From a virus (Duplodnaviria > Caudoviricetes), in the IMG/VR virus record IMGVR_UViG_3300010376_000077, positions 1-38,322 of that record: a stretch of 38,322 nucleotides of DNA. One strand, 5' to 3'. The translations under genes and the position numbers were made by a program. The notes under the pieces were generated by a model. It was not told the DNA's origin, did no database searches, and worked only from the letters and a program-made list of their open reading frames with translations. The stretch's first letter is position 1. Every line of letters begins with the position of its first letter. Positions 22 through 35,117 of the stretch are shown piece by piece.

Positions 22-423
22 GTGCCGATGCCCGACGGGTTTGACCGAGCTTCCCCGCGCCTGGGTGGTGCGCTCACCCGCGACGATTCGGTGTCTTGCG
101 GGACGAGCACCGAGGCGGCGCCAGTGGGGCGCGGGGAAGATGCCAGGACACCCGAGCGCATCATGCGGCCCAGCGGCAGCGCCGTGCCTGCGCGCCATAT
201 CGTGCCAAACGCACTACCGCCGCCCCCGCCGCCGCGGGATGAACCCGCCTCGACTCAGGTCATCCACCTGGTCCTGGCCGATGAGGGCGCCAGTCTCGAC
301 ACCATTGTGCAGCGGCTGCGCGAACGCCAGGTCGGCACGGCGCGCAGCCACATCGCCAGCCTGCGCATCCTGGTGCTGACGACACTGCGGCTGGCGCGCG
401 AAGCAGGCTGGCAATCGCCCTAA
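22..423 (+). CDS. hypothetical protein (true start may lie upstream of the window)
   Basis: 133-aa ORF whose stop overlaps the helicase start (TAATG). Confidence 0.6.
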   Translation: MPMPDGFDRASPRLGGALTRDDSVSCGTSTEAAPVGRGEDARTPERIMRPSGSAVPARHIVPNALPPPPPPRDEPASTQVIHLVLADEGASLDTIVQRLRERQVGTARSHIASLRILVLTTLRLAREAGWQSP

Positions 424-1988
424 TGCCGACCAGCCAGGCGGCGATCCGCAAGTACCTCCTAGAGCAGCCAACCGCGCCTGTCGCACAGCGGCTGTTCCGC
501 GGCGCAGGCAGCCGCGCGCTGCGCGACAGCATCCTGGCCAGCGGCGGTCACGAATTGCTGACCAAGACCGACCCCTACCAGCACCAACTGGAAGGGTTGG
601 CGTTTGCGCTGTGGGCCAAGCGCGGGCTGCTGTTCTACGAGATGCGTACGGGTAAGACAAAACTTAGCCTGGATTGGCTGAGTTATCTGATCTATTCGGG
701 ACAACTTACAAAAAAGGCCCTGATCATCGCGCATGCCCCCGTCGGCGTCGATGTCTGGGAGCACGAAGCAGCGCTACACTCATATCTCGACATTGCCGTC
801 GTGCGCAGCGGGTCCGCGGCCACCGACCAGTTGGTCGACGCCCTCGCCAGCCGCTGCGACGCGGTTCTGATCAGTTGGTCGACCTTGCAGACGATCTTTG
901 CCGTCAAGCAGGAAGGGCGGAAAAAAGTGCTCTACGCCGACCGCGCAACACTGCGCGCCGCCGCCGAGTTCTTTGACGCCGCCATCGTCGACGAGATCCA
1001 CATGGCAGGGCATTGGGACACCCTACGTTTTACAATGGCTTCAGAACTCCTCGCGCGATGCCGCTGGCGCCTGGGGTTGACTGGCACCCCCTTTGGCCGC
1101 GACCCGCTGCTGCTATGGGGCCAGGTCTATCTGATCGATGGCGGGGCAGCCTTGACCAGGGCATTCCCGTTCTTTCGCGAAGCGTTCTGCACAACCCGCT
1201 ACAACCAGTTTTCCAGGGGTCAGGATTACACCTTCGACCAGCAGAAAATGCCGTTGTTGCGCGAGAAATTGCAGGGTCTGACCCTGCACTGCGCGCTGGC
1301 CGACGTGCAGGACGTCAATGTGCTGAAGGGGATCGTCCGCCTGTCGATGTCGGCCGAGCAGGCGCGGGCCTATGACGAGGCTGTCGACCGTCTGGTTGAA
1401 TTGCGCACGGGGCAAGCCGTCGAGATCGATGCGACGTTTGTCAGGTTGAGACAGATCGCGTCGGGTTTTCTCCCCTTTGACGACACCGCAGGCGAACGCC
1501 GCGTCGTCGATTTCCCCGACGCCAGCAAACTCGCCTGGCTCGACGACTTTCTCGACAATCTGCCCGATCTTCAAGTGGTTGTGATGCATGACTTCATACA
1601 TTCGGGGGATAGAATCTGCAAACTATTGGAAAAGCATAAAATCAAGTATGACTGGTTGCGCGGCGGGACACCGAACCGTCCTCAGATCCTCGAACGCTTC
1701 CGCAATTGTGAGACACGAGTGCTCGTGACCAATGTCGCGACTGGAGGGATGAGTATAGATCTAGCAATCTGTGACTATTTACTTTTCTTCGAAGCGCCTC
1801 CTTCCGCAATTATCCGTAAACAGGCGGAAGCCCGCCCATTGGCTCGCGGCTCGCGACCACTTGTCATGGACGATCTCGTCTGTTCCCCAATCGAGCTTAA
1901 AATCCTAGATTTCCACGCCACGGGAGAAGATCTCCGCAGCGCGCTGTTGAGAGATCCCAAAAAATTCACTGAGGAATTACGAAGGTGA
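423..1988 (+). CDS. SNF2-family DEAD/DEAH-box helicase
   Basis: Walker A-like [26 protein letters not shown] and C-terminal helicase motifs (GGMSIDL, QAEAR). Confidence 0.9.
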
Positions 1989-2656
1989 AACGGATCGATA
2001 TAACTGGGCAAAGATTCGGTCGTTTGACCGCTTTGCGCCCAGCACAACAAAGCGGTTCGGCACGAACCCGTTGGATCTGCCAATGCAATTGCGAGCGTCG
2101 CACAATCAAAACGATAAGGCTCAGCGACTTGCGTACAGGCAGGACCAAAAGTTGCGGCTGCTGGAACCGAGAACGCGCTGCACAGCAATTGAAAGACCTT
2201 TACCCTGATGGTCAGTCAGGCACAAACAGTCCGTCTTTCAAACATGGAAAAGCACGAACCCGAGAGCACAATGCTTGGTACAATATGATCCAACGCTGCA
2301 CTAACCCCAACCACAAACATTATTCCTATTATGGTGGACGCGGAATCACCGTCTGCGAGCGTTGGCGAACTTCCTTCATGGATTTCCTTGCTGACATGGG
2401 TGAATGCCCCACCAAATACACTTTGGAGCGGATCGACAATAACGGAAACTACGAACCAAACAACTGCCGCTGGGTAACGACAAAGGAACAGGCCATCAAC
2501 AAGCGTCCACGAAAGCTAACCAAGGAGCAAGTCCTCGAAATCCGTCGTCGCTACACGGGGCGACGTGGCGAGCAGAGCGCTCTCGCCCGCGAGTTCGACG
2601 TACCACAAGGGCACATCTGGGGAATCGTCAATCGGATGACGTGGACGCACATCTAA
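1985..2656 (+). CDS. free-standing HNH homing endonuclease with C-terminal HTH
   Basis: [45 protein letters not shown]; lower GC than its neighbours. Confidence 0.9.
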
Positions 2657-7115: not shown

Positions 7116-7339
7116 ACATCCCGTCCCCCGACGACCGCGAGCGCGCTAAGTGGGCGCTCCTTCAGGCGCAGATCGATCAGGCGCGGCGGCAAGCCCGTTG
7201 GGAGACCCCCAAAGCCGTCGCAATGATCGCGCTGGCGCTGGCGGCAATCGCCGCCGCTGGGCACCTGACCGACCTCGTTTTTCCTGCCAAACCGCAAACT
7301 ATCATCGTTCACATCGATCAACCACTGGTAGTGAAATGA
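7112..7339 (+). CDS. small membrane protein (paralog family)
   Basis: AAGGAG RBS; WETPKA followed by a TM helix. Confidence 0.75.
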   Translation: MNIPSPDDRERAKWALLQAQIDQARRQARWETPKAVAMIALALAAIAAAGHLTDLVFPAKPQTIIVHIDQPLVVK

Positions 7340-7893
7340 GCAAGCGCACCGATCTAACGGGTCAGCGTTACGGTCGCCTTACTGTGGTGACGCGTATGCT
7401 GGCCCGCCCTGGCAGCTACAGCTATCGGTGGCTGTGCATCTGCGATTGCCCTGACAGGACCAAAGTTGTCGTAGAGCAGTATAATCTGCGCAGCGGCAAT
7501 ACCCAAAGTTGCGGATGTCTACAGCGAGAGATGTCTAGCCAACGCGCGACCCGCCGCAACTCTCTTCTGGTCGGACCAAACAACCCAAACTATATCGACG
7601 GTCGCTCGGTCGACAACCGACCCGAATATTCTGCATGGCTAAATGCGAAAAGTCGGTGTTTCGACGAAACGAACGCATTTTACAAAGATTACGGCGGAAG
7701 AGGCATCACAGTCTGCGATCGATGGCTAGATTTCCAGACCTTTCTTGAGGATCTCGGTTCAAAACCTGACCCATCGCTGAGCTTGGAGCGAATCAATAAC
7801 GACGGCAACTACGAACCTGGCAACTGCAAGTGGGCAACCGCCAAGGAGCAAGCTGGGAACCGCAGACCTGCCTTTCGAGGAGTTCCCCGATGA
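7336..7893 (+). CDS. free-standing HNH homing endonuclease
   Basis: Starts MSKRTDLTGQRYGRL; [35 protein letters not shown]; same family as 1985-2656. Confidence 0.9.
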   Translation: MSKRTDLTGQRYGRLTVVTRMLARPGSYSYRWLCICDCPDRTKVVVEQYNLRSGNTQSCGCLQREMSSQRATRRNSLLVGPNNPNYIDGRSVDNRPEYSAWLNAKSRCFDETNAFYKDYGGRGITVCDRWLDFQTFLEDLGSKPDPSLSLERINNDGNYEPGNCKWATAKEQAGNRRPAFRGVPR

Positions 7894-9617
7894 CCCCAAT
7901 TAGAGTTACAAAGGAAGGTGTCCGCTGGATCGCTAGGTTCAGTTTTGATTGGCAAACTAAGGACCATGTAAAAGCCGCTGGCTTTCAGTTCGACCCGACG
8001 ACAAAATACTGGTTCACTACCGACGCGACGGTCGCCGCCCAGCTCGACCCCAGGGCAGCCGCACAGGCCAACCAGGCGATTGCGGCCTCGCGCGCGACCA
8101 ATGTCGCGGTCGACATCCCCGTTCCCGCAGGGCTCGAATACCTGCCCTACCAGAAGGCGGGCATCGCCTATGCGCTCGGTCGCCCAAACACGCTGGTCGG
8201 TGACGAAATGGGGCTCGGGAAAACGATTCAGGCAATCGGCGTGATCAACGCCGACCCGTCGATCAAGTCGGTCTTGGTCGTATGCCCCGCGAGCATCAAG
8301 ATCAACTGGGCCCGAGAATTGACAAAGTGGCTCATGCGCCCGCTGTCGATCGGCATCGTGAACGGCGAGTTTCCGAGAACCGATGTCGTAATCGTCAATT
8401 ACGATGTACTCGCGAAATTCCGCCCTCAAATCGACGCTCGGCAGTGGGATATGCTGTGCGCCGACGAAGTTCACTTTGCGAAAAATCCAAAAGCGCAAAG
8501 GACCCAGGCGTTACTCGGCAACCGCAAGGCAGGCAAACCAGGGATCAAAGCGCGGCGCCGCCTCTTTCTCTCGGGGACGCCGATCGTCAACCGCCCCATC
8601 GAATTGTTTCCGCTCGTCGAAGCGCTCGACCCCGACGGCCTCGGTCGGTCGTTCTTCCAGTTTGCCAAGCGTTACACGATGGCTACGCATAACGGCTTTG
8701 GCTGGGATTTCTCGGGGGCAGCAAACCTCGAAGAACTGCAGCAGCGCCTGCGCGCCAAGTTCATGGTTCGGCGGCTCAAATCTGAGGTCTTAAAGGAACT
8801 GCCGCCAAAGCGCCGCCAGGTCGTCGTCGTCCCCGTGCCTGCCGCTGCTGCCGCGGCCGTCGCCAACGAGCGCGCAGTGTTTGAGGAGCACCGCAAGACG
8901 ATCGAAAGAGCCAACACCGCCGCCGACGCTGCTAAGGCGCGCGGTGACAAGGACGGCTACCAGGCCGCGATCAAGGCGCTCCACAGCGCCAATAAGATCG
9001 CCTTCGAGAAGATGAGCCTCGTACGCCACGCCACCGCTATCGCCAAGATCCCTGCGCTTATCGAGCACATCACCGAGATCCTCGAAGCCGAACCAAAGGT
9101 CGTCGTGTTTTGCCATCACCTCGATGTCGTCGCCGCCCTGCGCGAGGCGTTCCCCGATGCCGCGCTGGTGACGGGTGCCGAACCCTCGATGGCCAAGCGC
9201 CAGGCCGAGGTCGATAGATTTCAGCATGATCCCGAATGCCGCGTCTTTGTCGGCACCTATCCAGGCGCGGCAGGGGTCGGCTGGACCCTGACGGCGGCGC
9301 AGACCGTGGTATTTGGCGAACTCGACTTTGTCCCTGGCAACGTCAGTCAGGCCGAAGACCGCCTGCACCGTATCGGCCAGCTCGGCTCGGTGCTGGTGCA
9401 GCACCTGGTGTTCGACTCGTCGGTCGACACATACATGGCGCAGATGATCATCGACAAGCAAGAGGTCATCACCGCCACCTTGGATCAGCGCGCACTACCC
9501 GTGACCAGCGCGGCCCCGCAGGAGCCGCCCGAGGACCTGTTTGCCCCGCGGCCCGAACCCGCCGCCGCCAACGGCGGCGACAGCCGCATCCCCTTCGATT
9601 CTGAGGTGCCCTTCTGA
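7890..9617 (+). CDS. SNF2-family (HARP/SMARCAL1-like) helicase
   Basis: GAGGAG RBS; GDEMGLGKT, DEVH, LSGTP, QAEDRLHRIGQ; HARP-like N-terminus FQFDPTTKYW. Confidence 0.92.
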   Translation: MTPIRVTKEGVRWIARFSFDWQTKDHVKAAGFQFDPTTKYWFTTDATVAAQLDPRAAAQANQAIAASRATNVAVDIPVPAGLEYLPYQKAGIAYALGRPNTLVGDEMGLGKTIQAIGVINADPSIKSVLVVCPASIKINWARELTKWLMRPLSIGIVNGEFPRTDVVIVNYDVLAKFRPQIDARQWDMLCADEVHFAKNPKAQRTQALLGNRKAGKPGIKARRRLFLSGTPIVNRPIELFPLVEALDPDGLGRSFFQFAKRYTMATHNGFGWDFSGAANLEELQQRLRAKFMVRRLKSEVLKELPPKRRQVVVVPVPAAAAAAVANERAVFEEHRKTIERANTAADAAKARGDKDGYQAAIKALHSANKIAFEKMSLVRHATAIAKIPALIEHITEILEAEPKVVVFCHHLDVVAALREAFPDAALVTGAEPSMAKRQAEVDRFQHDPECRVFVGTYPGAAGVGWTLTAAQTVVFGELDFVPGNVSQAEDRLHRIGQLGSVLVQHLVFDSSVDTYMAQMIIDKQEVITATLDQRALPVTSAAPQEPPEDLFAPRPEPAAANGGDSRIPFDSEVPF

Positions 9618-11127: not shown

Positions 11128-12168
11128 TTGATGGATGCCATCGGGCAGACGGCGGCGAGGATCGCCGCCGAGCCCCGCAAGCTGCCCGACAAAGTGCTGC
11201 TGTGCTACGACGATCTCGCCAAGCGGCTCATCGGGACCCCGCGCTACCTGCTCGACGGCAACGCGACGCGTACTGCGGTCGAACTCAACCTCGGGCGCCC
11301 TAAGGTGATGCTGGAGGCGATGCGCCATCTGCGTATCCCCTACCCACGCCTGTGGGTAGAATGGGACGACGCCGACCGCCAGAAATTACGCGCCAAGTTT
11401 GACGAGCCGCTGAGCTATGCCGAACTGCGACCGATGCCAGGTCGGGTCGGGTTTCTCCTCGAAGCCGAGCCTGGCGGCCGCCGCGGCACTGCCACCTGGG
11501 CCTGGACCAGCGCCCACCCAAGCGCGGACAAGCCGCAGCACCTGCTCGACAGCGGCGCCACCGCGGTGATGAACACCACTATTCCCAATATCGGGGCGGT
11601 CCAGCCCTATTTTGATCTCGACCAAGTATTTGACATGTCGCCCGCGCGGTTTGAGGGTCTGTTTAAGGGCAATCTCGCCAGGCTGTGGCACGACAATCCG
11701 GTCCAACTGCAAGCATTACTCGATATCTGGCGGACTTGCGATCACCGCCCCAGTGAGTGGGGCCAACTCTACTTCGACGCGCTCGGGCACGACCCGCTGA
11801 TGCGGGCGCTGGCCGATGCCGATGTGATTGGCGAATATATCATGATCTGGGCGGTTCTATTGCTGTTGACCGCCAGCCGCCCCATCGTCGACCTGGTGCC
11901 AATCGATCTTGGTCGGCTCAACAAACGGCGGCTCAAAGCCAAGCAGGTGCCGCTGCTCGACCATACCCGCGTCACCTTGCGCCTGCAGCCGCCCGACCCG
12001 CGTTACAACCCCGTGATCCGCGGCCCCCTCGGGTACAGCCGTAAGAGCCCTAGAGTTCACTTAGTAAGCTCGTATTTAGCGCGGAGAGGTGATAAGCACT
12101 GGGTCTGTCGGCCCTATATGAGAGGTTCAGGGGATGTCATTTATCGCCGAATCAACGTCAAAGGATAA
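11128..12168 (+). CDS. hypothetical phage protein
   Basis: 346-aa ORF with GAGGAG RBS and basic C-terminal SPRVH...W.RPY.RG motif. Confidence 0.75.
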   Translation: MMDAIGQTAARIAAEPRKLPDKVLLCYDDLAKRLIGTPRYLLDGNATRTAVELNLGRPKVMLEAMRHLRIPYPRLWVEWDDADRQKLRAKFDEPLSYAELRPMPGRVGFLLEAEPGGRRGTATWAWTSAHPSADKPQHLLDSGATAVMNTTIPNIGAVQPYFDLDQVFDMSPARFEGLFKGNLARLWHDNPVQLQALLDIWRTCDHRPSEWGQLYFDALGHDPLMRALADADVIGEYIMIWAVLLLLTASRPIVDLVPIDLGRLNKRRLKAKQVPLLDHTRVTLRLQPPDPRYNPVIRGPLGYSRKSPRVHLVSSYLARRGDKHWVCRPYMRGSGDVIYRRINVKG

Positions 12169-12709
12169 ACTTACCCGCGAGCAAGTCGTAGAGTACCTTG
12201 ACTACAACCCTTCGACAGGCGTCTTTCTATGGAAGAAAAAACCAACAAGCGCCAAAGTTAGTCGAGTTATGCCAGGAAAGATCGCAGGTTCGATACGAAG
12301 GGGTGGACGCGTAAAATTCGGATACCGTGGCATCAATATTTTTAGTCGCCGCTACCCCGCTTCGCACTTGGCCTGGCTGTTGATGACTGGCCATTGGCCG
12401 ACTTCAATCGATCATATCAACAATGACAGCACCGATGATCGGTGGGGTAATCTGCGCCTTGCGACGCAAACCCAAAACCAAATGAACACCAGTACCCGCG
12501 GCGACAACACCAGTGGATACAAAGGCGTCCATCCTTATTCGCGAGGTAATAGTCATCGGTGGGTTGCCCAGATTGGCCGCCATCATATCGGCTATTTCAA
12601 CACCCCCGAAGAAGCCGCCCGCGCTTATGACGCCGAGGCGACCAACCGATATGGCGAGTTCGCCTATCGCAATTTTCCACTTATCCGCCGCCCGCGAGAA
12701 AACCTCTAG
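12134..12709 (+). CDS. HNH endonuclease with AP2 DNA-binding domain
   Basis: IDHINNDSTDDRWGNLRLAT..QN..N; SGYKGV..W.AQI..IGYF.TPEEAARAYD. Confidence 0.9.
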   Translation: MSFIAESTSKDKLTREQVVEYLDYNPSTGVFLWKKKPTSAKVSRVMPGKIAGSIRRGGRVKFGYRGINIFSRRYPASHLAWLLMTGHWPTSIDHINNDSTDDRWGNLRLATQTQNQMNTSTRGDNTSGYKGVHPYSRGNSHRWVAQIGRHHIGYFNTPEEAARAYDAEATNRYGEFAYRNFPLIRRPRENL

Positions 12710-29168: not shown

Positions 29169-29662
29169 GGGCTCGAAGCCATTGTGGGCCGCGCCACCGT
29201 TGGTGTAGCCAAAGGCGGCTGATCCAGGCCATTCGCCGCGGTCTGGGATGGCAGTAGCAGGGCGACAGAAAAATCGCTGAGACTCTCCTGCAATACCTCC
29301 CACAGCAACCGCAACTGGACATCGAGGCGGTCGGCGGCGCCGAGCATGAACACGCCGCCTGGCGCACGTAGAGGCAGCCACTGACTGCCCTGACGCCAAG
29401 CGACGCAGTGCAATGCGTTGTCAAGGATGAAATCGGCGTCGCCATCCGACAGCATGCCGATCGTGTTGGTCAGCGCCGCCAGCGCGTCATAGACATTGAT
29501 GTTGACGGTGGCGGCGTTGTCGTCGGCCGTCTGCCTGGCTAGGGCAAACAGCGGGGTCAGACCCTGCAAGACAGGCATCAGCCGCTTGACGACATAGAGC
29601 TGGGTACGCGTCGGCAGCGGCGCGATGCGGAACAACTGATTGTCGATCTCGACTTCCCTCAT
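29165..29662 (-). CDS. tail assembly chaperone
   Basis: E.EID...FRI..L....QL.V.KRL.PVL; position between tube and tape measure. Confidence 0.8.
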   Translation of the reverse strand: MREVEIDNQLFRIAPLPTRTQLYVVKRLMPVLQGLTPLFALARQTADDNAATVNINVYDALAALTNTIGMLSDGDADFILDNALHCVAWRQGSQWLPLRAPGGVFMLGAADRLDVQLRLLWEVLQESLSDFSVALLLPSQTAANGLDQPPLATPTVARPTMASSP

Positions 29663-30303
29663 GACGGCGCCTCGGGGTTGGGCGGCGGCTCGGGCGGCGC
29701 TGGTGATGGCGGTGGCGGGTCGGCGCGGCGGATTATGGTACGCGGACGGGTAGGTTGCGGGTTGCCATGACCAGGATTGCCATGACCAGGGTTGCCGTGG
29801 CCTGGGTTACCAGCGGCGGCGGCGCGCGCCACCATCTGCTCGACCTCGGCAGCCTCCTGTTGCCCCATCTCCTGACGCTTTTGCGCCGCCCTGCGGTGGC
29901 GCTCGGCCATGGTAGCCAGGCGCGTCGCCATGACGCGCGCCTGCTCGGCGCGCATCATCCCGCCTGGCGTCGCCGCCAAACGGTTGGCTTCGAGGCGGTA
30001 ATCGCTGCTCTCGCGCAGAAATTTCTCGACCAGCAAGATGTGGCACTGCGCTGCCTTGAGGTTGCACCACGCCTGATCGCTGGCTTTGGCGATCTCGCTG
30101 GTCTTGGCGCTGCGCTTCGCCCGCGCGCAGGCGTCGAGGTCGGTCTGCAACTGGTCGGCGGCGATGCGCCCCGCGCGCTCCAACTGCACGGCGCGGCCGA
30201 GCGGGTTGATGTTGCCCGTATCCGCCAAGTGACCGCCGCCGAGGGTGCGGCCAAACTGGTCGTAACCCCCCTCGACGCGGTTGAACTGATCTCGCGACAG
30301 CAT
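29659..30303 (-). CDS. hypothetical protein with GNPGH repeats
   Basis: GGAGG RBS; helical body, (GNPGH)x3, Pro-rich tail. Confidence 0.65.
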   Translation of the reverse strand: MLSRDQFNRVEGGYDQFGRTLGGGHLADTGNINPLGRAVQLERAGRIAADQLQTDLDACARAKRSAKTSEIAKASDQAWCNLKAAQCHILLVEKFLRESSDYRLEANRLAATPGGMMRAEQARVMATRLATMAERHRRAAQKRQEMGQQEAAEVEQMVARAAAAGNPGHGNPGHGNPGHGNPQPTRPRTIIRRADPPPPSPAPPEPPPNPEAPS

Positions 30304-30313
30304 GACTCACCTC

Positions 30314-31161
30314 CTAGCCAATTGGTATTGTCGGGCCCGTCTGCTGCTGGGCCGCCCCCGCAGCCCCCATCGATCCAGCTCCCGTCTGCGCGTACGGCAC
30401 CCAGTAATTTGTGCCGATGCCAAGCATTGGATCGACAAGGGCAACATGCATCTCCCACTCGATAGTATTACCTATCTTGGCGTAACTATTAGTTGGCATT
30501 CTGACAAATGCACAACCTTGGAGGGTGTACTTGTCCCCGCGCGATTTGTCGGTTATCGTGATCGTATTTTGCCCCCACAGGCTCGATTGCACGCGCTGAT
30601 AGTTATAAATTTGGATAAGCGCGTTGTTTATCGGGGAGGTCTTTAGTAATCTAAACGTGGCTGTGCCTGCACGACTGGCGTGCAGGCTGTTCATCACTGA
30701 ACCGTCGGCTCCACCTGATCTTCAGCCTGTTTCGCTACGACAGGCCCGTCCTTGCGGACTGCTGCACATTGCTGTGCAGAGGAGACTATATCTTCGGCCT
30801 CTTGATGAGGTCGCCCGGCGCTTCGGGCCGCTTGGCCCTACTCTCTCGCGAGATAGTCGTTACACCTTGAGCACGCGTTAAGCGTGAACCTTGGCACGGT
30901 ATTGTCCACGTGGGAGTTCCACCGTTTTCACCGGGTGCGCACCAGACTATTGCTAATCTGGGGGACTTACAACTAAATCGTTTGTGTGTTGGTCTCTTCA
31001 CTAAGAGTGATTGTAACACCCTCCTCCGCGCTACCTGAATTGGGCCCAGCAAACGGTATAGGAGCATTTAGAACCACACCATCGGTTCCTGGGCCACTCA
31101 TAGCGCAAGCTACATCCATAAAGGAGTAACTTCCGTAGTAAGGGTTGTAAGGATTCGTCAT
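30314..31161 (-). CDS. tail tube protein (DUF3277-like), spliced: exon1 31161-30977, exon2 30713-30314, ~194 aa
   Basis: YSFMDV...AEEG.TI...E.NT.TI joins in frame to GADGSVMNSLHAS..GT.T.RLLKTSP, the continuous family motif. Confidence 0.9.
30714..30976 (-). mobile_element. ORF-less group I intron (263 nt, subgroup IA-like)
   Basis: P AAAACGGTG, Q AATACCGTG, R GTAACGACTA, S AAGATATAGTC; P1 ACGAU/GUUGU with U.G at the splice site; P3 CCCGG/CCGGG; P7.1/P7.2; P9 with GCAA tetraloop; terminal G. Confidence 0.92.
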
Positions 31162-31280
31162 AACTCCTCCTTTCCGTGCAAACAGCCCGCAGTGGAAATC
31201 AAGTGCAGGGTTGCTACATAAAGCGAGGCCCGCAGCCGTTGACGGCGGCTACGGGCCTCTAACCACCAGCATGAGGACGC

Positions 31281-31988
31281 ATGCCAATGGCTGACGATTC
31301 AGGTATTCCCGAGATCATCACCCGTAAAGAGGCGCTCCAGCGCGGGCTCAAGCGCTACTTCCCAGGTACAGTTTGCAAGAATGGGCATTTCGCAGCGCGC
31401 CAGACATCTAACTGCGCGTGCATCGAATGCGTGAAAACGAACACAAGACGGTATTTCGCCAATCATCCAGGCAAACGAACCGAAACCTGGAACAAATGGG
31501 CGACTAAACAGTCCAATGAATGGCACGATGAACGCCGTGAACGGGATCTAGCTCGTCTATTGCTCCACTGTGAGCTTCGACCGGACCTACTGAAGAAGCG
31601 GATAAGCGATTGGCAAAAACGAAACCGCAAACGGAGAAACCAAACTACTAAGGACTGGTTTGATGCCAATCCTGGTAAGCACGGCCACTACAACGCATTG
31701 CGCCGTGCCGCCGAAGCCAATCCGTCGTGGGCTGACCAAGAAGTTATCGAACAGATTTACCGTGAAGCCAACGGAGTGGGGCTGACCGTCGAACACATTG
31801 TGCCGATAGGTCAAGAGCGCGATCCGCTTACCGCCGATGGCTATCCGATCCGCGGCCTACATGTCGCATGGAACCTACGACCGTTAGATGGCAGTACGAA
31901 CTCTAGCAAAAATGACAAAATGACCCGCAAAGACCAAGATTTCTGCGAACGGAACCCTTATCCTGGCGCAATCTATCCTACAACCTAA
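31281..31988 (+). CDS. free-standing HNH endonuclease, antisense within the late operon
   Basis: YF.G..CKNGH...R....C.C..C N-terminus; VEHIVPI...GLHVAWNLRPL....N.SK. Confidence 0.88.
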   Translation: MPMADDSGIPEIITRKEALQRGLKRYFPGTVCKNGHFAARQTSNCACIECVKTNTRRYFANHPGKRTETWNKWATKQSNEWHDERRERDLARLLLHCELRPDLLKKRISDWQKRNRKRRNQTTKDWFDANPGKHGHYNALRRAAEANPSWADQEVIEQIYREANGVGLTVEHIVPIGQERDPLTADGYPIRGLHVAWNLRPLDGSTNSSKNDKMTRKDQDFCERNPYPGAIYPTT

Positions 31989-32107
31989 AGGTCATTGGTT
32001 CACGAAGATGAGCACGTCTGCATGATTATCGAGATCCAGCTACAGGTCGGTTTTCAAATCCCCACAACCTAAAGTCATTGGTTGACAAAAATTAACACGT
32101 CAGCGTG
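31980..32107. repeat. imperfect direct duplication of the sheath 3' end plus flank
   Basis: 31992-32024 and 32075-32107 both encode HADVLIFVNQ* on the - strand; both are preceded on + by ACAACCTAAAG. Confidence 0.85.
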
Positions 32108-33658
32108 GTGAATTGCGCCAGCGCATTTTGCGAGGATTTGAATCAGTGGCGCGATGCGCGCCGCTCGATCCGCCAGAGACTGATCGCCCATGCTCGGGGC
32201 ATAGACGTAATACCCCAGGTTCAGCAGTTGCCCCTGAGTAATAGCGCCCACCCCTGGTGCATTCCACACACCAGGTCCAAGATAGCCATTACGAACATAA
32301 GTCGCGCACACCGCATCGCATGCGTTGATCAAAATAGTCATCCCCATATCGGTCTGCGGGACCTTCGTATTCGTCGTATAAAGCACGTTAAAGAGGGAGT
32401 TCTGCACATCAAGCGCCAGGGCATCCGCGCCGATGATTGTGTCGGTAAATTCGCCCGAGGCCGAAGTCCCGTATTGGATGATCTGCGCCCCGTTGGCGAT
32501 CCCGACATAGACATTGCAGTGCTTCTCCTGCAAGGTGTCGGCTTCCTGGTAGGTGATGTTCTCTGGCTGAACACCAGGTTGGCGCTTGTACATCAACGTA
32601 ATCGTTGAGTTCATTGCCCGCCATCTCGTGGTCAAGATACGCGACAAATACGAACAAATGGCATAGGGGTTTGACGTGCTGTATTGCACAGCGGTCTTGT
32701 TGTAGCCGTAGAGATAGAGCTGGGTCGGCAGATCCTCGGGCTCGATATCGGCCATGATACTATCAAGAACCCGCACATCGTCCGAGGTCGCGCCAAAATA
32801 CTTTGGCGGGTCGGCGGCCTCGCAATAGAGGGCAATGTCGAGCTGACCGCCGACGGCGTTGATCGCAGGGTCGGCGCTTGGCACGATAACTCCGTAGAAC
32901 AGACTGCTGTAGAGACCGTCGATCGCCTCGACCGCGCTCAGCGCCGTCTCGGGATCGGCCCCGCCGACCCGTCGCGCACCCGTTGCGGAGGTGCCCCGCA
33001 GCAACGGCGCGAGATCGGTGCCCGTGCCGCCCGCGATAGAAGTCAGATAGCCAATGCTCTCGGTGACCCCCGCCCCCAAGGTCGCGAATACAAAACGCTC
33101 GCCATCCCAATGCACCACCACATCCCCAGGAACCGCAGGCGGGGCGGGAACCGTGCCGCCCAGTGCTGTGACGACGGCAGCGTTGATAATGGCTGCGACA
33201 CCGTTCAGGTTGACAATGGTGCCAAAGTTCAGGCCCGTGATCGGAATGGGCGGGCCCGCCCCGATGGTGATCTCGAACTCGCCAAGCGGCTTGAAGCCTG
33301 GTCCCGCCGCGCCGTTGATCAATTCCCACACGGCGGGCCGTCGCTCGGCGGGGGTCAGCACGCCACAGCGCAGCATCGCTGGGGTCGCCTCGCGTATCCA
33401 GCGCCCAATCATCAGATTGTCGGGTGACGGCATCTGCGAGAACCACGCCGCGGCAGCGTGGTATTCCTCAGACTCATTGCCAAAATCATGCGCGATCTGA
33501 CCAATATTGGCGTACGAGCGCATGCGTTCATCGACATCGATGACGTGGCTGGTTCCAACAATTACTGCGGTATTGATAGCTGCTTCGATCACCGCAGGAG
33601 TGGTGAGGCTCACAGACACGCTCACATAGCGGCTAACTGGAAGGCCAGTTGTCAGCAT
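32075..33658 (-). CDS. tail sheath protein (DUF3383-like)
   Basis: GLPVSR.V.VSV.L, EY.AA..WFSQ...P..L.IGRW, NSTITLMYK..PGV, KVPQTD.G, AGAIH. Confidence 0.92.
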   Translation of the reverse strand: MLTTGLPVSRYVSVSVSLTTPAVIEAAINTAVIVGTSHVIDVDERMRSYANIGQIAHDFGNESEEYHAAAAWFSQMPSPDNLMIGRWIREATPAMLRCGVLTPAERRPAVWELINGAAGPGFKPLGEFEITIGAGPPIPITGLNFGTIVNLNGVAAIINAAVVTALGGTVPAPPAVPGDVVVHWDGERFVFATLGAGVTESIGYLTSIAGGTGTDLAPLLRGTSATGARRVGGADPETALSAVEAIDGLYSSLFYGVIVPSADPAINAVGGQLDIALYCEAADPPKYFGATSDDVRVLDSIMADIEPEDLPTQLYLYGYNKTAVQYSTSNPYAICSYLSRILTTRWRAMNSTITLMYKRQPGVQPENITYQEADTLQEKHCNVYVGIANGAQIIQYGTSASGEFTDTIIGADALALDVQNSLFNVLYTTNTKVPQTDMGMTILINACDAVCATYVRNGYLGPGVWNAPGVGAITQGQLLNLGYYVYAPSMGDQSLADRAARIAPLIQILAKCAGAIHHADVLIFVNQ

Positions 33659-34205: not shown

Positions 34206-34219
34206 TCTACTTCATCCCC

Positions 34220-34274
34220 AAGAAAAGCGGCCCGCCCAGGGGGGCCAGGCGGGCCAAGTTAGGGAGGAAATCGT
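34220..34274 (-). ncRNA. SuhB/MmgR (alpha-r8)-like sRNA 3' module with terminator
   Basis: TTTCCTCCCTAACTTGGCCCGCC...GGCGGGCCGCTTTTCTT resembles the family's UUUCCUCCCU..ACUUG + terminator core. Confidence 0.6.
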
Positions 34275-35117
34275 CTAGTACAAATCCCCATCCAAAGGCC
34301 AGTTGAGATCATCGACATAGCGTTTGCTGGCTGGCTCGCTGGGCTGCACGGGCGATGCCGCCGTGTAAAGCGGTCCTTCCATCGTGCCGCCCGTGCTGGG
34401 CAACACCCGCTGCCAGGTCCGCGTGCCGCTGCGACCCCAGGCCGTGCCATCATGCGGCGCGTCGGTCATCGGCGGCTCGGGAGCGGGCGGCATGACGGTG
34501 AACGGCGTCTGATAGGGCGGCCCGCAAGCGCAATCGGCCTGGACGTAGCCCCGCACTCCGAGCAGGGTCAGGACGGGGTAGTTCTTTCTGATAATCCTAC
34601 GGAAGGTGATTTCCTTGTCCACCCTGTTGAGCCACTGGTTTTTGACCAACTCGGGAATGCGCCTGGATTCGTGGACCTCGACGAGCTTGACGCCGACCTG
34701 GTTCAGCACACTGTAGTTCTGCCAGACACAGGCGCCATCGTGCAGGTTCGAGCTATAGATTTCGGCCTGCGGCCCGTAAAACGTCACGAGCAACTCGAAC
34801 TCCTCGTGGCGCTGATACTGCACGAGACCATGATCGGGAAAGATCCACGGCCACATCGCTGGGTAGATGCCGACGGGGCGCGTGCTGGTGATGCCGATCG
34901 CGCACCAATCGGCGCCGACATCGGGCAGGTTTGGCGGGATCAATTGCCAGCGCGGGCGCACCAGGGTCTCCTCGATATAGGCGACGCCAGCCACCCATTG
35001 CTGCAAAAAATTCTCCAGCGGGACGCCAGGCTGGATCTGCTGGTCGGGGTAGGGCGGCTCGCGCGGCTGCAGATAGCCTGGAGCACTGCTGTCGGGAGCC
35101 TGATCGGGGATTGCCAT
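34275..35117 (-). CDS. neck/tail-terminator protein with C-terminal foldon-like extension
   Basis: S..GYL.P, VRPRWQ..PP..P....WCA.GI, FYGP, W..RVD...FRR...R.YPV. Confidence 0.8.
   Translation of the reverse strand: MAIPDQAPDSSAPGYLQPREPPYPDQQIQPGVPLENFLQQWVAGVAYIEETLVRPRWQLIPPNLPDVGADWCAIGITSTRPVGIYPAMWPWIFPDHGLVQYQRHEEFELLVTFYGPQAEIYSSNLHDGACVWQNYSVLNQVGVKLVEVHESRRIPELVKNQWLNRVDKEITFRRIIRKNYPVLTLLGVRGYVQADCACGPPYQTPFTVMPPAPEPPMTDAPHDGTAWGRSGTRTWQRVLPSTGGTMEGPLYTAASPVQPSEPASKRYVDDLNWPLDGDLY

What the first reader, a model, noticed from the sequence alone, without database searches (positions are those of the whole stretch)
30714..31988. ORF-less group I intron in a tail tube gene beside a free-standing HNH: candidate collaborative homing
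Seen: a 263-nt intron with a full catalytic core splits an Ile codon (AT|T) immediately before the conserved GADG motif; unspliced RNA reads ATT TAG and stops. An antisense HNH gene starts about 300 nt away. Established: the best-known phage group I introns are in DNA-metabolism genes, and collaborative homing between an ORF-less intron and an adjacent endonuclease is described for cyanophage S-PM2 psbA/F-CphI. Inference: the HNH cuts intronless tube alleles, the intron confers immunity, and tail assembly depends on splicing.
Basis: partly seen in the sequence, partly recalled or inferred. Interest (0 to 1): 0.8.

Follow-up and report, generated by a model that had tools for sequence, protein, structure and literature searches.

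The report
Self-splicing intron in phage tail tube
The tail-tube gene of this uncultured phage is split by a 263-base group I intron that is predicted to splice itself out, next to a separate DNA-cutting gene that likely spreads itself and carries the intron along as a passenger; this is a real, new example of an arrangement already published for staphylococcal phages.

Summary
A 263-nt ORF-less subgroup IA2 group I intron (30976-30714, minus strand; Rfam 53.6 bits, cut-off 50) splits a PF11681/Pam3-type tail tube gene at AT|T before GADG. Removing it restores a 194-aa frame that matches intronless relatives. An antisense HNH-family gene starts 305 nt from the 5' splice site.

The collaborative-homing reading is only partly supported. 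Among 74 distinct sheath-tube loci the intron occurs only in this contig, while 4 of the other 73 carry an antisense nuclease-family gene in the same slot with an intronless tube. Codon-composition shifts hug the cassette (sheath end, tube start), not the intron site, and the sheath's last codons are duplicated here.

Best reading (0.5): a junction homing nuclease that likely cuts near itself and co-converts the intron (T4 mobE/nrdB-like trans homing). Cutting at the intron site: about 0.25. No cut site or splicing was tested.

Tube introns with an adjacent nuclease gene are published (phage 812; Twort orf142), and this scan noted the same layout in other genomes. New here: this tube family, and an intron related to proteobacterial-phage DNA-polymerase introns.

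The parts
30977..31161 (-). Tail tube exon 1 (61 codons plus the first two bases of Ile62)
   Evidence: PF11681 profile 3-44, E 0.002; 85% aa identity to intronless L019/L020; GC3 0.43 against 0.76 in six other structural genes
30714..30976 (-). ORF-less group I intron, subgroup IA2, 263 nt
   Evidence: RF00028 53.6 bits; helices; 96.5% of cells paired and 17 of 39 pairs with changes on both sides across 7 introns
30969..30981 (-). P1 helix with U.G pair at the 5' splice site; 3-nt loop that begins the in-frame stop
   Evidence: 5 of 5 pairs; also in the predicted fold
30867..30890 (-). P6a hairpin, empty: the place where related DNA-polymerase introns carry their endonuclease ORF
30783..30860 (-). 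P7 (guanosine site) enclosing P7.1-GUA-P7.2, the P3 3' strand and P8
   Evidence: P7 invariant in 7 of 7 introns; IA2 criterion from PMC3428280
30714..30781 (-). P9.0 (predicted, 2 bp), P9, P9.1, P9.2 and terminal G
30314..30713 (-). Tail tube exon 2 (last base of Ile62, then GADG to the stop)
   Evidence: PF11681 E 1.9e-30, profile 47-144; 92% aa identity to L019/L020
31225..31259 (.). 14-bp hairpin in the leader of the antisense cassette; terminator-like on the tail-operon strand
   Evidence: 1 site found, 2.0 expected by chance in the region; homologous hairpin and leader in L024, L026, L038, L040
31281..31988 (+). Free-standing HNH-family gene, antisense to the tail operon: N-terminal Cys/His domain (phrog_1081), long helical linker, C-terminal HNH-type motif (E171-H172, N198, N207); second ATG at 31287
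   Evidence: phrog_1081 E 2.5e-15 and phrog_1035 E 2e-8; H172, P175, N198, N207, K210 invariant in 68 relatives; weak profile match to a Cas9 HNH (E 0.004)
31977..32024 (-). Orphan second copy of the sheath's last ~11 codons, its stop and the HNH's last ~14 nt
   Evidence: repeat of 32061-32107 at 83-84 nt spacing; 0 of 2000 shuffles score as well
32075..33658 (-). Tail sheath gene; last 75 codons AT-shifted (GC3 0.52 against 0.73 upstream)
   Evidence: DUF3383 and phrog_205

Best explanation
A complete ORF-less IA2 group I intron interrupts the tail tube gene and is predicted to self-splice, and the neighbouring antisense HNH gene is likely a free-standing homing nuclease that would nick cassette-free alleles close to the sheath-tube junction and copy the intron along as a passenger. 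Shown: intron anatomy, splice boundaries, restored tube frame, gene order, the repeated use of this slot by nuclease genes in intronless relatives, and the duplicated sheath end. Inferred: (1) the late tail transcript splices by the usual guanosine two-step route, and only spliced RNA gives tube protein; (2) in a mixed infection the HNH nicks the rival genome in the sheath 3' end or the first ~40 tube codons; (3) repair from this genome copies the cassette and flanks, and the intron 305 nt away lies well inside the co-conversion range of up to about 2 kb reported for T4; (4) immunity comes mainly from changed flank sequence, not from the intron. The intron most likely derives from the DNA-polymerase IA2 family of proteobacterial phages and has no ORF of its own in P6a.
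For: Of 74 distinct loci showing both sheath end and tube, the intron core was found only in the window's own contig (nhmmer; Rfam). Four of the other 73 carry an antisense nuclease-family gene in the slot with an unbroken tube: L099 (intact, same two-domain build, 28% identity), L003 (broken, same HNH subfamily), L011 (GIY-YIG type) and L119 (N-terminal domain only). L024 adds a fifth, with its sheath off the contig. In 6 cassette loci (window included) against 56 short-gap loci, GC3 falls in the last 15 sheath codons (mean -0.35 vs -0.05, p 0.001) and in the 40 tube codons before GADG (-0.27 vs -0.04, p 0.0003), but not in the 16 codons around GADG or beyond it (both p 0.2). In the close pair L038/L040 the dense differences occupy the last ~60 nt of sheath and the tube start and fall to 0-2 per 15 nt in the 30 nt before GADG (L038 vs L025). 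The sheath end is duplicated at the HNH's 3' boundary, a scar of recombination there. Relatives of this HNH sit free-standing between morphogenesis genes in the 3 cultured phages inspected. T4 MobE is a precedent: it nicks nrdB away from the intron site and still mobilises the intron (PMC2790892).
Against: No cut site, nuclease activity or splicing was measured. The intronless carriers are only 28-44% identical to this HNH over the parts matched, so they need not share its target. The AT shift could reflect promoters or relaxed codon choice rather than immunity (L099 has an 11/12 sigma-70 match in the spacer). The loci are not phylogenetically independent, and 12 long-gap loci without such cassettes were left out of the test. 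L119 shows no sheath-end shift. In the window the shift runs on through exon 2 (-0.17 vs mean -0.04, sd 0.08), and L038/L024 show a 6-difference cluster in the 30 nt after the GADG start; both fit a target near the intron site. GADG is the most conserved tube motif, the kind of site homing nucleases favour. The window protein has E171 where at least 90% of relatives have D. The 80 loci were the best 80 of 311 by full-length score, which favours unsplit genes.
Confidence: 0.5

Rival explanations
1. Collaborative homing: the HNH cuts intronless tube alleles at the Ile62/GADG site, the intron breaks that site and so protects its own genome, and both spread together.
For: The intron sits at the most conserved motif of the tube family (G, A, G invariant in 19 sequences). 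305 nt is within the reported range for free-standing nucleases. The exon sequence at the site is no more diverged from L019 than background, as expected if the intron itself protects. Low GC3 spans HNH, both exons and the sheath end as one island. In phage 812 tube introns and the adjacent nuclease gene are lost together.
Against: There is one co-occurrence only. No second intron at this site came from three pattern scans of IMG/VR (5, 13 and 1 hits, none an intron in a tube gene) or from tube-family scans. Same-slot nucleases persist without the intron, and disturbance is centred on the cassette flanks.
Confidence: 0.25
2. The two elements are unconnected neighbours. The intron arrived with its own P6a endonuclease or by reverse splicing, has none now and is simply stuck in an essential gene. 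The HNH targets something too far away, is inactive, or is decaying like those of L003 and L119.
For: The genome carries three further HNH genes (1985-2656, 7150-7893, 12134-12709), so nearness to some HNH is not rare. Related introns carry their own ORF in P6a. The slot also holds non-nuclease genes (L038, L028). E replaces the usual D before H172.
Against: The HNH frame is intact with all family-invariant residues and folds confidently in prediction (mean pLDDT 87.7). Any cut within about 2 kb would co-convert the intron.
Confidence: 0.2
3. The cassette has been domesticated as a brake on tube expression (antisense transcription plus the leader hairpin, with splicing as a timing switch), and mobility is incidental.
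For: There is a terminator-like 14-bp hairpin on the tail-operon strand just before the tube. The same hairpin and leader recur before antisense genes in L024, L026, L038 and L040. A switch role for phage introns has been suggested in print.
Against: 56 of 74 loci have a short gap with no cassette. The cassette content turns over and decays. The terminator count does not exceed chance.
Confidence: 0.05

Closest known systems
Staphylococcus phage 812 (also A3R, 676Z, Fi200W, P4W) tail tube locus, Botka et al. 2019, PMC6445280 (passages read)
   Same: [quoted passage not shown]
   Different: Herelleviridae of staphylococci, two introns, nuclease gene numbered after the tube. Here: one intron, a PF11681/Pam3-type tube in a 61% GC phage, and an antisense HNH between sheath and tube.
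Phage Twort orf142 introns (via PMC11878797, passage read; original paper not read) and the Bacillus KBAB4/B4264 prophage tail tube intron (PMC2504315, passages read)
   Same: Group I introns in tail tube genes.
   Different: Firmicutes phages; that Twort has three ORF-less IA2 introns there is recalled, not read.
T4 mobE with the nrdB intron, trans homing (PMC2790892; passages and first part of the Discussion read)
   Same: A free-standing HNH in the gap before the intron-bearing gene; nick in the gene's 5' part away from the intron site; a non-mobile intron carried by co-conversion.
   Different: MobE has an N-terminal HNH, is co-oriented and promoterless, and the nrdB intron keeps a defunct ORF; the nick is mapped there and unknown here.
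Collaborative homing: S-PM2 psbA intron with F-CphI (PMC6083498, PMC2988022, PMC3984707; passages read)
   Same: An ORF-less intron at a conserved site with an adjacent free-standing nuclease gene.
   Different: Defined by cleavage at the intron site and protection by the intron, neither tested here; F-CphI has an Endo VII-type motif.
IA2 DNA-polymerase introns of proteobacterial phages (phiXacJX1, IME184, DU_RP_I, RCIP0099, SSE121, PhAPEC5)
   Same: 70-76% identity over the 3' half, the same P7.1-GUA-P7.2 and P9-P9.2 build, with compensatory changes.
   Different: They sit in DNA polymerase genes, at least IME184, SSE121 and PhAPEC5 with an ORF in P6a; this one is in a virion gene and empty.

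Membership tests
Group I intron | Catalytic core P3-P7-P8 and P4-P6 with G-C guanosine site | tested here: met
   RF00028 above gathering; helices pair; P7 invariant in 7 of 7
Group I intron | U.G pair in P1 at the 5' splice site and terminal G | tested here: met
   U30977.G30973; G30714 invariant in alignment A11
Group I intron | Removal restores the host reading frame | tested here: met
   194-aa frame; same junction in intronless relatives
Group I intron | Self-splicing in vitro or in vivo | not testable with these tools
   needs RNA data or a bench assay
Subgroup IA2 | P7.1 and P7.2 joined by G-U-A | tested here: met
   30853-30842, GUA, 30838-30825; criterion from PMC3428280
Myovirus tail tube (PF11681 / Pam3-type) | Family match and position between sheath and chaperone | tested here: met
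HNH nuclease | D/E-H ... N ... H/N motif | tested here: met
   E171-H172, N198, N207; H, N, N invariant in 68 sequences, D usual at 171; aligns to a Cas9 HNH motif at E 0.004; Pfam HNH hits 5 of 68 members but not this protein
HNH nuclease | Beta-beta-alpha-metal fold | tested here: inconclusive
   Model pLDDT 87.7 with two strands and a helix at 169-209; Foldseek has no match at E<=0.001, but most of the weak top rows are HNH nucleases (Gme HNH, McrA, I-HmuI)
Free-standing homing endonuclease | Optional gene between conserved essential genes, patchy among relatives | tested here: met
   nuclease-family gene in 5 of 74 loci at this junction; relatives between morphogenesis genes
Free-standing homing endonuclease | Site-specific nick of the empty allele and biased inheritance | not testable with these tools
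   bench assay needed
Collaborative homing pair | ORF-less intron next to a free-standing nuclease gene | tested here: met
Collaborative homing pair | Cleavage at the intron insertion site, blocked by the intron | not testable with these tools
   indirect signs point to the cassette flanks instead, but do not exclude it
Collaborative homing pair | Intron and nuclease travel together across genomes | tested here: inconclusive
   one locus has both; 4 of 73 others have a distant nuclease without intron; none has the intron alone

The most novel reading that the evidence does not exclude
This locus catches collaborative homing at its birth. A DNA-polymerase-type IA2 ribozyme has jumped into the most conserved motif of a virion gene, and a nuclease from a family that keeps invading the sheath-tube junction now cuts exactly there, with the intron replacing flank recoding as its immunity. 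The intronless nuclease carriers (L099, L003, L024) and the empty close relatives (L019, L020) would be the before-states, giving a ready substrate series for the open question of how intron-nuclease partnerships start.
Probability: 0.2. Interest if true: 0.55.

Novelty: new member of a known kind. Interest (0 to 1): 0.3.

Why it matters
Practically, gene callers will report a truncated tube here: the real gene is split and an essential virion protein would depend on a ribozyme. Scientifically, it extends tube-gene introns from Firmicutes phages to the PF11681/Pam3-type tube family and points to an intron family crossing from DNA polymerase genes into a structural gene. It also shows the sheath-tube gap as a slot repeatedly taken by unrelated antisense nuclease genes that leave AT-shifted flanks. 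Few free-standing nuclease/intron pairs have mapped cut sites, and close empty alleles (92% identical exon-2 protein) make this one cheap to test. It does not reveal a new mechanism.

Tried and rejected
Second copies of the intron at this site: pattern scans of IMG/VR gave 5, 13 and 1 hits; none was an intron in a tube gene. The last pattern does find the window's own site.

Cultured phages: 165 of 168 tube matches cover at least 80% in one place, and all 60 rows shown are single pieces.

HNH searches: the direct search of IMG/VR found nothing; a motif pattern found only L003's contig.

Expression: no RNA holder listed. The contigs of X1 and X2 show no joint across intron or cassette; that proves nothing about absence.

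Structure: the first HNH model from 5 sequences was poor (pLDDT 55). The VIA-align search returned only helical-linker matches.

Promoters: no sigma-70 promoter was found around the window's cassette.

Repeat extension: extending the sheath-end repeat to a full 84-nt tandem unit is not significant (146 of 2000 shuffles).

Tract mapping: window versus L019/L020 is too diverged at synonymous sites to map a tract.

Insertion-site likeness: I considered that the tube site mimics the DNA-polymerase motif where related introns insert. The registers differ, so I rejected it as evidence.

P5: the pairing tried has no loop; the 3-pair form is the plausible one.

Artefact: rejected.

Literature: searches listed no paper on an intron in a PF11681-type tube gene. 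Supplements were not opened; Table S1 of PMC11878797 lists split phage genes and may bear on this.

Full report
Setting. The window is a whole 38,322-nt virus record, estimated 67% complete. Its minus strand carries a myovirus tail operon: neck, sheath (33658-32075), tube, a 214-aa gene, tail assembly chaperone, tape measure, hub, wedge and fibres. The host is unknown. One tube relative lies on an alphaproteobacterial MAG contig (L050), which is only a hint.

The intron is real. Rfam's group I model matches 30980-30762 over its full length at 53.6 bits (cut-off 50, E 4.9e-11) and is the only such hit in the window. Cutting 30976-30714 (263 nt) gives a 194-aa frame, whereas the unspliced frame stops after Ile62. 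Exon 1 matches PF11681 positions 3-44 and exon 2 positions 47-144. The relatives examined read straight through the site, the closest as Ile-Gly-Ala-Asp-Gly. A profile of 19 intact relatives hits the Pam3 tube (E 4.7e-9) and other tube chains among 7 PDB sequences.

The core helices pair, including the U.G at the 5' splice site. P7.1 and P7.2 are joined by GUA, the IA2 criterion given in PMC3428280 (passages). Against six related introns, 96.5% of cells pair, 17 of 39 pairs change on both sides, 0 of 500 shuffles reach this, and slid controls fall to 32-45%. The structure was drawn from the window sequence, so the controls lean in its favour. P10 would be only three pairs, two of them G.U (read). 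Splicing itself is untested.

Origin of the intron. BLASTN finds 391 phage records at E<=1, none over 80% of the query; the best are 70-76% identical over the 3' half. All six that I opened lie in DNA polymerase genes or their split remnants. IME184, SSE121 and PhAPEC5 carry an endonuclease ORF in P6a; in the window P6a is a short empty hairpin. The inference is that a polymerase-type IA2 ribozyme has reached a virion gene.

The nuclease. ORF 31281-31988 (+) has an N-terminal Cys/His domain (phrog_1081), a long helical linker and a C-terminal motif E171-H172...N198...N207. Pfam does not call it. H172, P175, N198, N207 and K210 are invariant in 68 aligned sequences chosen from 1,140 hits, and at least 90% have D at 171. 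A model with pLDDT 87.7 gives only sub-threshold Foldseek rows, mostly HNH nucleases. In the three cultured phages opened, its relatives stand alone between terminase subunits or inside tail modules. I take it as a likely active free-standing homing nuclease.

Do the two belong together? I gathered tube loci from IMG/VR, JGI metagenomes and GTDB. Seventy-four distinct loci show both sheath end and tube; some are near-duplicates, and one search kept the best 80 of 311, which favours unsplit genes. An nhmmer profile of the intron core hit only the window's own contig and the six polymerase loci it was built from. Four of the other 73 hold an antisense nuclease-family gene in the gap with an unbroken tube: L099 (intact, same build, 28% identical, with an 11/12 sigma-70 match), L003 (broken), L011 (GIY-YIG type) and L119 (nuclease domain lost). 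L024 is a fifth with its sheath off the contig, and L038 has the same hairpin leader with non-nuclease genes. So the slot is a recurrent landing site that needs no intron. Three unranked pattern scans for an intron at this site found no second case (with 29, 30, 97, 120-122).

Where is the disturbance? In six cassette loci against 56 short-gap loci (12 long-gap loci left out), third-position GC drops in the last 15 sheath codons (p 0.001) and the 40 tube codons before GADG (p 0.0003), but not around or after GADG (p 0.2). The loci are related, so these p values overstate. The close pair L038/L040 shows the same: 5 and 9 differences in the last two 30-nt sheath blocks against 0-4 before, dense differences in the tube start, and near identity just before GADG. 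In the window the sheath's last eleven codons, its stop and the HNH's last 14 nt occur twice, 83-84 nt apart, marking a recombination event at that boundary.

Against this reading: the window's own shift continues through exon 2 (GC3 0.61 vs 0.76). L038 and L024 have six differences in the 30 nt after the GADG start. L119 has no sheath shift. AT-rich flanks may serve antisense promoters. The carriers are too distant to share a target for certain, and GADG is the best-conserved motif, which is what homing nucleases tend to choose.

Mechanism. I commit to trans homing at 0.5: the HNH likely nicks empty alleles near the junction, repair copies cassette and flanks, and the intron 305 nt away rides along, as the T4 nrdB intron does with MobE, within a co-conversion range of up to about 2 kb (PMC2790892, passages and first part of the Discussion). 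Collaborative homing in the strict sense, a cut at the intron site blocked by the intron (PMC6083498, PMC2988022, PMC3984707, passages), gets 0.25. Unconnected neighbours get 0.2, since the genome has three more HNH genes. A regulatory domestication gets 0.05.

Novelty. Tube introns are in print for Twort orf142 (PMC11878797, passage) and Bacillus prophages (PMC2504315, passages). Non-coding tube introns with an adjacent endonuclease gene are described for phage 812 and four sisters (PMC6445280, passages). An adjacent-nuclease terminase intron is described for ICP1 (PMC10448857, passages). The original Twort, S-PM2 and T3 papers were not read. This scan's own notes list the same layout in several other genomes (unchecked AI notes, one of which led me to PMC6445280), but none with look-alike sequence. 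Searches listed nothing on an intron in this tube family; supplements were not opened.

Verdict: a real new member of a known kind, interest 0.3. Its value lies in the ready series of empty and nuclease-only alleles for mapping the cut.

Noticed in passing
window 1985-2656, 7150-7893, 12134-12709 (+): Three more HNH genes (GC3 0.55-0.58), two flanking SNF2 helicase genes; no group I signal near them at Rfam E<=5.
   Followed up: partly
window 423-1988 and 7830-9617 (+): Two separate SNF2-type helicase genes in one small phage.
   Followed up: no
window 31225-31295; L024 545-610; L038 2730-2795 and 4323-4372; L026 2083-2132; L040 4311-4360: A shared hairpin plus ribosome-site leader starting proteins with MAD(D/P) precedes different antisense genes at two junctions of the tail operon; it looks like a portable expression cassette; no Rfam family.
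   Followed up: partly
L059 1126-2500 (Klebsiella phage RCIP0099): An ORF-less relative of this intron splits the DNA polymerase gene, with a free-standing HNH_3 gene overlapping the polymerase stop: a cultured candidate for the same kind of pairing.
   Followed up: partly
L056 1330-1650, L058 ~1160-1410: Unannotated group I introns in the DNA polymerase genes of Xanthomonas phage phiXacJX1 and Ralstonia phage DU_RP_I; the records list the exons as separate genes.
   Followed up: partly
L099 2452-2480 (-): Near-perfect sigma-70 promoter a few bases before an intact antisense HNH, implying a nearly leaderless transcript opposed to the tail operon.
   Followed up: partly
L060 2311-2452: A second, weaker intron-core hit in the Salmonella phage SSE121 polymerase gene.
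   Followed up: no
window 34214-34306 (-): Weak suhB/mmgR-like match (24.1 bits, cut-off 41, E 0.64), possibly just a terminator hairpin.
   Followed up: no
window 29659-30303 (-); L028 1060-1416; L104, L114, L117: Proline/glutamine-rich low-complexity genes of unknown family inserted next to the tube in this phage clade.
   Followed up: no
L050 3001-3300, L001, L021, L033: Low third-position GC in the tube gene of the closest clade even without a cassette (L050: 0.50 against 0.86 in its sheath), suggesting tube alleles move between genomes.
   Followed up: partly
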